Source of the DNA: Chrysomallon squamiferum
Lineage: Eukaryota > Animalia > Mollusca
DNA length: 64,000 nucleotides
Assembly (NCBI GenBank): GCA_012295275.1
Contig: CM022666.1
Span: 12,834,001-12,898,000 of the forward strand
Direction: 5' to 3'
Position 1 is the first letter of the stretch; each line of letters opens with the position of its first letter. A program made the position numbers and the translations under genes. The notes under the pieces are model-generated. The model had not been told where the DNA came from. It made no database searches and saw only the letters and a list, made by a program, of their open reading frames with translations. Of the stretch, positions 43,101 through 46,100 are shown piece after piece.

Positions 43101-46100
43101 ATATGTAGCCTGAGACAGCATGACAAAGGTTTCACAAAATAAACAAGATAAATACAGAGTTTAAGTCAGTGTTCGCATGTTAATAACAAAACAGTAGATA
43201 CTCACTGTTGGTCCAAGACTCCATTTCCTTGGGTATGTGTCTCTCTCCATGATCACTCTTTTTATCTTAGCAACCATACCGTGGTCACATGACGACATAA
43301 CTGCAGTGGTCATCTGTGCAATGGCTGAAATAAAAATAAAAACTTTATTACATGTGATAAAATAAAGCAATGAACAGCACTGAGAATGAACGTATAGTAA
43401 ACTTAAAATTAATTATTAAATGCTACCATTTATTATTTTAAAAGAAATATATGCTTAGGTCATTTTAGGTCTTATAGATTACAAAACAGGCATCTTACTC
43501 ATAATGTTTATCTGTCATTTCTGGAAAACCATAAAAATATATGTTTTAGAAATTTACATTAAAAATGATTACTAATTCCTCATTCTCAACAACAAACAGC
43601 TAATCTCCATAAACTCATAAAGATTTCAAAACCAATGAAATGTTATCTTCAAGTTAAATTTTTTTTCTTATAATTTTGTTTTGTTTCTGTGTAAGATTTC
43701 AGGAAAACAAAATATGTCATACCAAGTGCAATAGCTTCTCCCTTGGTTGTTACTATGACAATCTCTTCATCAATTTCAATTCCATCTTCATAGCGGAGTA
43801 CTCCAGGCAGCATTATTTTAGCTCCGTAACAGATTGCATTGATCTGAGAATATTAAACATTTCCATTATATTTAACTATGCAGTCATTGGTTCCAATCAA
43901 ATTAACATTTTGCATTAAATTAGTTACATTTCTGAAGAAATTATTTTGGTTCAACTACAGACTAAAATCCATAAAATATATTTTATATTACCACAATTTT
44001 ATCACCTCTAAAAAGAAAATAATATCTAATGTTACAGCTAATAATAATCATACTTCAAAGAAGTTTTATTTCTTTTCTACTATCTCTTAGTGGGATTTTA
44101 ATTTTTGATTTTTCCAGGGATAAAGGATACCTTATATTCTTTTACTTTATTTGTAAGTTATGACAAAATACAAAATGTTACAATGCCACCACAATACAGT
44201 CAATAATATACAGGAACTACTTTGTAATTTAAGAAAGAAAAAACACATTTGTAACAAAATCTTCTATAAAATCAAATTTTCTTTTCCTAATAATCGACAC
44301 TGTGAAACTGTTGTTACATACAGCAGTGTCTTTCATGATGATTCGTTTGTGTGAAGTGAGCAGCGCTTCAAGTGGCCGGATTACTCGACGCAAGTACGTT
44401 TCATCTTTCTGATTGTCATACAGCCACTGGGCATCCATTACATCATGCATAGTTACCATGCCTTCCTGCAAACATGATCAGATAAATATATACAAGCATC
44501 TTAATAAAAACAAATATGATTACAAATATTTAATTTATGAACTTATTAAATAAAAATTATTTCAAGCTACTATTTCACATTAGCTTGTATAAATTTGTAT
44601 TTTTAAACTTATTTTTAAGCTAAATGAAGGAAATACTTGTGAAATATCACTTCTGATTTACTGAAACCAGTGCCTATTTTGTACTGATAAATCCTGCTCG
44701 ATAACTATGTGTTAGTATTACAAGATTTCCAATGTAAGAGAAGTATAAAAACAATGGATTAAACCTCTGAAAAATGTCAAATTATGAAAACATGTACAAA
44801 GGTACCAAACCTGTTTCTATATTACAAGACAAAAATAAAACCCTAAAAATTAACTTATATGAAATGACAGAAATCTTTTTAATTACTTTTTTTGAAACAA
44901 AACTTTAAAATATTCTTAAGGATTTTTTATATATATATATATACATACACACACAATAAAACGTTTTTCAAATTTTCATCTGAAACCAGTCTCATTCAAA
45001 CCATCAAACTAATCACAAATACACCAAGAAGACATAAAACTGTTCAAGGTAACAAACCTTTTCTGACTGGATTCCTGACCTAACTCTACGCAGTTCCTGC
45101 ATCTGTCCACCGACGCCCAGCATGAGCCCAAGATGCACACACATTGTCCTGATGTATGTGCCTGCCTCACAGCTCACCCAGAATATACCTGAGCAAACAC
45201 GGAGAGCACACTGTTAGCAACAACAACACCGAGTCAGCATCATTAGTGAACATGCTCCCCTAACTAACATGTAATTTTAAAAACTTTGAATGTTTCCGTA
45301 TCAGGTTGTTGAATATCACTAATGAGAAAATTTAGTTTTTCCTGTAATTCTGAAAATTCTGCAGTATCTTTTGTTGAAAGGAAAAGTAACCAATTTTTAT
45401 TTTATTCAGTTTCACTTAAATGATCCATTTAATTTTAGATGTAAAATCCAGCTTCACTGTAATGCTGAATTGCATGGTTAACTGGCTAAACAAAATTAAT
45501 ATGGGATTTCTACTAAACAATACAGCTTGTTTTGTTCTTTTTTTGTCACTACACAGAAGGTAAACAAAACTACTGATTAATTACCAAAACTGAAAAATTA
45601 GCCATGGAAGTTTGTAATTTTCCATTTCTCATATTATTTTAATGAACAGTAAAACAAATTCTTTTCTTTTTAGCATCCTGACTAAATTTTAACAACATTT
45701 TCCATTTCACTCAGATTGGGATATTAATACTCCACAGCTGTCCATTTTTCATTTTCAGGTTATCATCTTAATATATATTTGATGTTTTGTTCACAAAATC
45801 TGTACCTACACAAGACAATTATTTCCCTTCTCTATTATAACCCATGAACATGTAATTATAGCTAGATGGTAATATTGCTTGAACTGATTTTCACAGTAAG
45901 AAAGGTAACAACAAAAACTACAGTAAACAGTTTACCCATGGCTCTCTCTTTGTCGTATTCTAACATTTTACATTCATACACAGTTCGGATTCTCAGCTGA
46001 CGCTTGACAGCAGATATTAATGGTGGTCGCTGAAACAATGCCCCAGTCATGTTCTCCAGTTGCTGCAGACAAAAATAAAAATAAAAAATAATAATTTTCT

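What the first reader, a model, noticed from the sequence alone, without database searches (positions are those of the whole stretch)
45189..45269. G.U-rich hairpin that bulges out exactly the branch point of DKC1 intron 6, with a competing anti-branch-point strand
Seen (pre-mRNA sense): GGGGAGCAUGUUCACUAAUGAUGCUG-acu-CGGUGUUGUUGUUG[CUAAC]AGUGUGCUCUCC pairs at 25 of 26 positions. The only bulge is CUAAC, about 25 nt from the 3' AG, and a cryptic AG is buried in the stem. About ten pairs are G.U, so the fold works only on the transcribed strand. Just upstream, UGUUAGU (45269-45263) is complementary to GCUAACA and could mask the branch point. This intron end is GC-rich, unlike the U-rich ends of most other introns in the gene. 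Known: snoRNP protein genes can autoregulate splicing through intronic RNA structure (NOP56/SNORD86). Inference: a two-state splicing switch controlling dyskerin level. No H or ACA box follows the hairpin, so it is not a standard snoRNA.
Basis: partly seen in the sequence, partly recalled or inferred. Interest (0 to 1): 0.75.

Follow-up and report, generated by a model that had tools for sequence, protein, structure and literature searches.

The report
Hairpin masking dyskerin's own splice site
In the dyskerin (DKC1) gene of a likely snail, the proposed branch-point hairpin loses one arm to a 15-base inversion in another run of the same organism, but a neighbouring predicted hairpin that folds over the intron's 3' splice site appears conserved among mollusc-like relatives and likely acts as a brake on the gene's own splicing.

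Summary
Gene, intron 6, coordinates, the 25-of-26 pairing, 10 G.U pairs and the GC-rich intron end are real. The fold that bulges exactly CUAAC is not the favoured one: 1.3% of the ensemble, branch A 92% paired. Its lower 5' arm is inverted (45248-45262) in another run of the same organism code, and 19 bases of its upper half are unlike in a related species. The switch as drawn is not supported. What holds up is next door. The last 29 intron bases are kept in the related species (at most 6 differences). They are predicted to pair with the first 33 bases of exon 7, burying the 3' splice site, with the branch point at the 5' foot and an ACA at the 3' foot. All five exon changes of the related species in that stretch fall in loops or keep the pair. 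Read-through translations of six mollusc-like intron ends fit the same register far better than 109 others (indirect, post hoc, related taxa). Best reading: a conserved splice-site-masking hairpin that limits productive DKC1 splicing, possibly by mimicking an H/ACA RNA, the counterpart of NOP56/SNORD86. No alternative isoform, protein binding or nucleotide-level covariation was shown.

The parts
45936..46062 (-). DKC1 exon 6 (127 nt)
45189..45935 (-). DKC1 intron 6, 747 nt, GT..AG
   Evidence: joint in RNA contigs X8 and X9; ends checked
45058..45188 (-). DKC1 exon 7 (131 nt, not a multiple of 3; encodes [13 protein letters not shown]...)
45156..45211 (-). Predicted hairpin across the 3' splice site: intron -23..-1 with exon +7..+33, -25.0 kcal/mol; upper stem 45198-45188 with 45182-45172, lower stem 45211-45205 with 45162-45156
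   Evidence: comparative support
45153..45155 (-). ACA directly 3' of the lower stem, 16 nt after the upper stem; formed by the Tyr-Ile codons
   Evidence: sequence and fold
45213..45219 (-). Predicted branch point UGCUAAC (A at 45214), at the 5' foot of the splice-site hairpin; likely UACUAAC in the related species
   Evidence: (alignment ends at 45217 and the loose end supplies UA; identity of CUAAC itself inferred)
45201..45260 (-).
45221..45245 (-).
45248..45262 (.). 15-nt segment inverted in run X4, between the short inverted repeats TTAGT (45243-45247) and ACTAA (45263-45267)
   Evidence: differences compared with the coordinate inversion
45263..45269 (-). UGUUAGU: complementary to GCUAACA (45218-45212) and to ACUAAUG (45247-45241)
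45211..45212 (-). Upstream AG; its use would add 22 nt and give a premature stop; not seen in RNA contigs

Best explanation
The last 23 bases of DKC1 intron 6 are predicted to fold onto the first 33 bases of exon 7, hiding the pyrimidine tract and the 3' AG, and this hairpin, likely conserved in molluscs, likely works as a brake on productive splicing. Shown: the sequence, the normal junction, conservation of the intron end in a related species, and premature stops on retention, exon-7 skipping or cryptic-AG use. Predicted: the fold. Inferred: when the hairpin is closed the 3' splice site is poorly recognised, the transcript retains the intron or skips exon 7, and it is lost to nonsense-mediated decay. 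The most likely controller is dyskerin's own H/ACA complex, because a 7-bp lower stem ends directly before an ACA that lies 16 nt from the upper stem; that step is the weakest. The longer G.U hairpin upstream is likely an allele-specific fold whose lower stem depends on the orientation of a micro-inversion.
For: Fold -25.0 kcal/mol, z -2.19 and -2.50. The upper stem has probability 0.55-1.0 in every context that contains it, in both alleles. 166 of 5000 intron-end shuffles and 64 of 5000 synonymous exon recodings fold as well. Related species (X10/X11, one sample; its exon changes give the residues of the Gigantopelta aegis protein P0078): the alignment runs 29 nt into the intron and stops exactly at the branch point. 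20 of its 26 differences are listed and all are exonic, so at most 6 are intronic. Its five changes in exon +1..+33 are loop (45187), G.U to G-C (45176, a Val-to-Ala change), G-C to G.U (45172), bulge (45169) and bulge (45163). 0 of 4 paired third positions where a change could break a pair changed, against 3 of 4 unpaired ones (hand mapping, assuming its intron side is unchanged). Read-through ORFs: purine at -6 with pyrimidine at -5 in 6 of 6 mollusc-like against 15 of 126 others; G at -21 with C at -18 possible in 4 of 5 against 4 of 109. Best attainable register score 15.5-18 for 7 mollusc-like ORFs (5 clusters) against a mean of 13.6, with 1 of 109 others at 17 or more; scores drop to 8-15.5 when the register is shifted by 1-3. 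Residue permutations reach the observed score in 28, 17, 7, 26 and 0 of 400. Precedents: NOP56/SNORD86 and SNORD2/EIF4A2 (PMC11028025), plant DEAD motif (10.64898/2026.01.23.701338).
Against: No retained, skipped or cryptic isoform in the RNA contigs of 2 of 2 runs (low-depth contigs drop rare forms). One other of the 14 acceptors (intron 12) reached the same shuffle p of 0.033. The lower stem is context-dependent (0.01-0.68 in the window allele, about 0 in windows of 340 nt or more). The ORF test is indirect and post hoc: amino acids give an upper bound on pairing, the register came from the window's own fold, and the six ORFs are unnamed and look like about three lineages. No new mollusc-like ORF appeared among 84 further proteins, and 2 of 24 scored non-mollusc ones reached 17. 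P0123 is shifted by 3 nt in the lower stem and P0259 breaks pair -4. The window itself mismatches at -11..-13 in the shared register. The ACA is forced by Tyr-Ile codons, and part of the upper stem by YAG|G plus Phe-Trp codons. The hairpin is absent from a fish-like intron and five short-intron loci (7-11 of 20 pairs), so it is not pan-animal.
Confidence: 0.45

Rival explanations
1. No functional structure. The intron end is conserved as primary sequence (a strong branch point and a G/U-rich acceptor bound by a splicing factor), and it pairs with a purine-rich exon only because G and U pair easily.
For: Folding significance is modest (p 0.013-0.033) and one other acceptor matches it; conserved letters in the ORFs could be a protein-binding motif; vertebrate-like ORFs also end in GU-rich tracts without the register; no alternative isoform seen.
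Against: Register specificity; purines at -6, -13 and -21 face exon pyrimidines, where a pyrimidine tract would be expected; five of five exon changes in the related species spare the pairs.
Confidence: 0.3
2. The intron end is an editing-complementary sequence: it forms a duplex with exon 7 so that ADAR can edit the exon or the splice-site A.
For: Conserved intron-exon duplexes are the usual ADAR anatomy (own knowledge); the helix is nearly continuous in the bivalve-like ORFs.
Against: No A-to-G change in 45188-45156 among the differences listed for RNA contigs X8 and X9 (the table was cut and contigs hide minor editing); the stem is short and rich in G.U.
Confidence: 0.1
3. One reading: the long G.U hairpin presents the branch point and UGUUAGU masks it.
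For: The pairs exist, z -2.75 on the 60-nt core; it dominates windows up to 140 nt, which could matter before exon 7 is transcribed; the upper stem and UGUUAGU survive the inversion; only 3 such complements in 9.4 kb.
Against: The bulged form is 1.3% of the ensemble; the lower 5' arm is inverted in X4, and the upper part is unlike in the related species.
Confidence: 0.08
4. An ordinary intronic snoRNA (H/ACA ending at ACA 45214-45212, or C/D using boxes at 45319-45234) explains the GC-rich patch.
For: dyskerin genes host snoRNAs (PMC1821038); box-like words are present.
Against: No Rfam match here even at E 10; no H box; the ACA overlaps the branch point; the C'-like and D-like words abut with no guide between; the sequence upstream of the branch point is not kept in the related species.
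Confidence: 0.04

Closest known systems
SNORD86 in the NOP56 pre-mRNA (box C/D snoRNP autoregulation; read through the review PMC11028025, passages; the original paper was not read)
   Same: A snoRNP core-protein gene whose pre-mRNA holds a structure proposed to sense its own product and steer splicing to an unproductive form
   Different: Here it would be an H/ACA-type, not a C/D-type, signal; a single hairpin that spans the intron-exon junction and uses coding sequence, so it cannot be excised as a snoRNA; nothing shown by experiment
DEAD motif of plant DRH1/RH46 genes (10.64898/2026.01.23.701338, abstract; PMC12218528, passages)
   Same: Conserved hairpin over a 3' splice site of an RNA-acting enzyme's gene, coupled to NMD feedback
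   Different: There the structure hides the unproductive site and is opened by helicase activity; here it hides the productive site and would be held shut
SNORD2 / EIF4A2 (PMC11028025, passages)
   Same: Base pairing near the intron end blocks 3' splice-site signals and gives exon skipping with a premature stop
   Different: That needs a true snoRNA pairing with its intron and sequesters the branch point; here the branch point stays at the foot of the stem
Box H/ACA RNAs (features from PMC7991803, passages)
   Same: Lower stem, irregular middle, upper stem, ACA directly after, 16 nt spacing
   Different: No H box in the window, no open conserved pocket, ACA internal to an exon and not 3 nt from a 3' end
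Micro-inversions between short inverted repeats (PMC8755829 and PMC8604942, passages)
   Same: A 15-nt clean inversion abutting 5-bp inverted repeats
   Different: Nothing notable; an ordinary member, slightly shorter than the 17-33 nt cases in PMC8755829

Membership tests
Box H/ACA snoRNA | Hairpin directly followed by an ACA box | tested here: met
Splice-site hairpin ends at 45156, ACA at 45155-45153; forced by codons, so weak.
Box H/ACA snoRNA | 15-16 nt from the pocket top to the box | tested here: met
   16 nt (45171-45156) between upper stem and ACA; rule from PMC7991803
Box H/ACA snoRNA | Two hairpins with an H box (ANANNA) in the hinge | tested here: not met
   The hinge reads CUAACAG, an ANA without the sixth A; ANANNA is possible but unproven in three bivalve-like ORFs (from codons)
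Box H/ACA snoRNA | Open pseudouridylation pocket complementary to a target | tested here: not met
   The middle is partly paired in the MFE, can close fully in related ORFs, and its 3' side is coding; no target search was run
Box H/ACA snoRNA | Released as a stable RNA ending 3 nt after ACA | tested here: not met
   The hairpin straddles the splice junction used in the mRNA; no Rfam match
Box H/ACA snoRNA | Bound by dyskerin, NOP10, NHP2 | not testable with these tools
   needs CLIP or binding assays
Autoregulatory cis-acting structure coupled to NMD (NOP56/SNORD86, DEAD type) | Structure overlaps a splice signal of the gene's own pre-mRNA | tested here: met
   Predicted fold buries the AG at 45190-45189
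Autoregulatory cis-acting structure coupled to NMD (NOP56/SNORD86, DEAD type) | Structure conserved with covariation | tested here: inconclusive
   One-sided pair-keeping changes and a codon-level register; no nucleotide alignment available
Autoregulatory cis-acting structure coupled to NMD (NOP56/SNORD86, DEAD type) | An unproductive isoform exists | tested here: inconclusive
   All three alternatives would give premature stops; none seen in contigs, which show presence only
Autoregulatory cis-acting structure coupled to NMD (NOP56/SNORD86, DEAD type) | Isoform ratio responds to the level of the gene's product | not testable with these tools
   needs knockdown or overexpression
Micro-inversion between short inverted repeats | One allele equals the reverse complement of the other, flanked by inverted repeats | tested here: met
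   All nine substitutions and both indels listed for X4 at 45248-45262 are those of the inversion; one base next to the gap was not listed

The most novel reading that the evidence does not exclude
Molluscan DKC1 pre-mRNA builds an H/ACA-RNA mimic out of its own intron end and catalytic-domain exon (hairpin plus ACA; possibly two hairpins with an H-like hinge that doubles as the branch point). Surplus dyskerin complex clamps the hairpin, blocks the 3' splice site and sends the transcript to decay. This would be the H/ACA counterpart of NOP56/SNORD86 feedback, and a natural inversion polymorphism beside it may tune the set point.
Probability: 0.2. Interest if true: 0.8.

Novelty: new variant of a known kind. 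Interest (0 to 1): 0.55.

Why it matters
Box C/D snoRNPs have a described splicing feedback through NOP56. My searches (open-licence library only) listed no equivalent cis element for dyskerin; the nearest was a speculation on a truncated Drosophila isoform (PMC1821038). Dyskerin dosage matters for ribosome and telomerase RNA. A conserved hairpin over its own splice site gives a small, directly testable candidate, with two natural alleles next to it.

Tried and rejected
No whole genome is held for this window. Rfam gave nothing at the locus at the gathering score or at E 5-10, nor on six fetched loci. A degenerate acceptor-plus-exon pattern found 0 loci in viral contigs and 0 in genome contigs, and 7 in metagenomes: five short-intron AT-rich loci, one fish-like, one intronless, no mollusc. 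Related-locus scans gave none and one intronless contig. So no nucleotide alignment of mollusc introns, and no covariation test, was possible. The 50% representative search added no mollusc-like ORF. Cluster look-up gave no names for 9 of 9 ORFs, so 'mollusc-like' rests on exon residues shared with named mollusc proteins; some named crustacean proteins match the window's exon as well. The 127-of-100000 shuffle figure is circular and is not used. The cryptic AG is not generally kept in the related ORFs. Lack of intron cover by RNA contigs is not counted as evidence against retention. Run X1 has no listed cover at 45242-45272; this may be a polymorphic bubble but proves nothing. Earlier findings of the scan held nothing relevant. 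No supplements were read.

Full report
Setting. The minus strand at about 49800-40190 encodes dyskerin. The exons match named DKC1 proteins, best among those aligned the gastropod Gigantopelta aegis (86.9% over the matched exons), so the organism is likely a gastropod (inference). Intron 6 is 45935-45189. RNA contigs of both RNA runs laid join exon 6 to exon 7 at these sites, and show no other joint there.

The observation. The letters and coordinates are right. The drawn hairpin has 25 of 26 pairs with 10 G.U, works far better on the transcribed strand, and lies in the only clearly GC-rich acceptor of 14. But the striking part, a bulge of exactly CUAAC, is a hand-chosen suboptimal fold: -19.0 against -20.8 kcal/mol, 1.3% of the ensemble. 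In the favoured folds the branch A is paired and the G of the cryptic AG is open. Significance depends on the borders: 3 of 200 shuffles for the 60-nt core, 40 of 200 for 101 nt. With more context the hairpin loses to other folds.

Variation inside the species. Laying contigs at 80% likeness showed nine substitutions and two one-base indels packed into 45248-45262 in run X4, same organism code. They are what a clean inversion of these 15 bases gives (compared; one base beside the gap was not listed). The segment sits between the inverted repeats TTAGT and ACTAA, the known anatomy of micro-inversions (PMC8755829, PMC8604942; passages read). Run X2 shares other variants with X4 but its tally of changes does not allow the inversion, so both orientations exist. 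In the inverted allele the lower stem has probability 0.0 and the core drops to -11.9. The upper stem remains, and in the isolated core CUAAC is then unpaired, so some structure near the branch point persists in both alleles. Whether the alleles splice differently is unknown.

A related species. Runs X10 and X11 (one sample, organism B) gave a 229-nt contig that aligns over 45052-45217 with 26 differences. Twenty are listed, all in the exon, and they give the Ala and Phe of protein P0078. Just upstream of CUAAC the likeness stops: 3 of 19 bases by hand count, reading ...UA before CUAAC. A different hairpin there in organism B cannot be excluded from 19 bases.

The competing hairpin. Those conserved bases are predicted to pair with exon 7: 45211-45188 with 45182-45156, -25.0 kcal/mol. 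The 11-pair upper stem buries the AG and is present at 0.55-1.0 in all contexts and both alleles; the 7-pair lower stem is context-dependent. Shuffling the intron end or recoding the exon synonymously matches this energy in 166 and 64 of 5000 trials; the intron-12 acceptor reached the same level in its own shuffle test, so energy alone is weak evidence. All five changes of organism B in the first 33 exon bases fall in the loop or bulges or keep the pair, among them a Val-to-Ala change in a conserved motif that turns G.U into G-C (mapped by hand). Changes at third positions are denser further down the exon.

Wider relatives, indirectly. No mollusc intron DNA could be fetched. Gene callers, however, read through this acceptor, so short database ORFs carry the intron end as amino acids in a fixed frame. 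I kept ORFs of 230 aa or less that are not spliced or intronless here, and defined a mollusc-like class by exon residues only, though after seeing the list. Six ORFs fell in it. They require a purine at -6 and pyrimidine at -5 in 6 of 6, against 15 of 126 others (five rows without a possible acceptor codon left out), and allow G at -21 with C at -18 in 4 of 5 against 4 of 109. Scoring the best attainable pairing in the window's register put six of the seven class members (two are cluster-mates of P0124) among the top seven of 116, and only in that register. Permuting each ORF's own residues reached the observed score in 28, 17, 7, 26 and 0 of 400. Limits: an upper bound, post hoc, about three lineages, unnamed sources, no held-out member among 84 further proteins, and 2 of 24 scored outsiders at 17. 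Real DNA of a fish-like locus and five short-intron loci gives 7-11 of 20 pairs against 17 in the window.

How it likely works. A closed hairpin hides the pyrimidine tract and AG while the branch point stands three bases from its 5' foot. Retention, skipping of the 131-nt exon, or use of the upstream AG each gives a premature stop, hence likely decay (established NMD logic; not shown). An ACA follows the 7-pair lower stem, 16 nt from the upper stem, the geometry that dyskerin's PUA domain reads (PMC7991803, passages). This suggests feedback by the H/ACA complex, but the ACA is imposed by Tyr-Ile codons, the window has no H box, and the pocket is not open. It fails as a snoRNA and can at most work like one.

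What is known. NOP56/SNORD86 and SNORD2/EIF4A2 (PMC11028025, passages) and the plant DEAD motif (10.64898/2026.01.23.701338, abstract and outline; PMC12218528, passages) are the closest systems. The Drosophila gene hosts snoRNAs, and an autoregulatory role was only speculated for a truncated isoform (PMC1821038, passages). A dyskerin review has no occurrence of feedback, autoregulation or alternative splicing (PMC8594475, term search). Six searches (listings and abstract starts) showed no described structure at this DKC1 acceptor; subscription papers are not covered. Rfam has no match.

Verdict. Observation partly confirmed; the switch as drawn is not supported; a neighbouring splice-site hairpin is a credible, apparently undescribed candidate for a conserved cis-regulatory structure. 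New variant of a known kind, interest 0.55; the H/ACA-mimic feedback reading has probability 0.2 and would deserve 0.8.

Noticed in passing
window 48512-48375, minus strand (DKC1 intron 2): Candidate H/ACA snoRNA: a 9-bp-closed hairpin with an internal loop (48512-48460), AUAAAA directly after, a weaker second hairpin and ACA near 48380; z -2.5 for the 149 nt; no Rfam match; no target search
   Followed up: partly
   Followed up: partly
window 45242-45272: Run X1 contigs end at 45241 and restart at 45273, wider than the inversion seen in X4; possibly a further polymorphism
   Followed up: no
window 45248, 45239 and 45219, minus strand: Three branch-point-like heptamers within 30 nt
   Followed up: no
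L003:303-330, minus strand: The fish-like orthologous intron has its own 12-bp hairpin ending about 15 nt before the AG (z -3.5 for 81 nt); vertebrate-like ORFs end this intron in UG-rich tracts
   Followed up: partly
window 2384-3898 (+) and 8783-10336 (-): Two long single-exon ORFs that resemble each other and look by eye like rhodopsin-type GPCRs, in opposite orientation; not searched
   Followed up: no
L008:600-1000: An intronless eukaryote-type dyskerin stretch on a 1.3-kb low-coverage contig of a bacterial assembly, likely contamination
   Followed up: no
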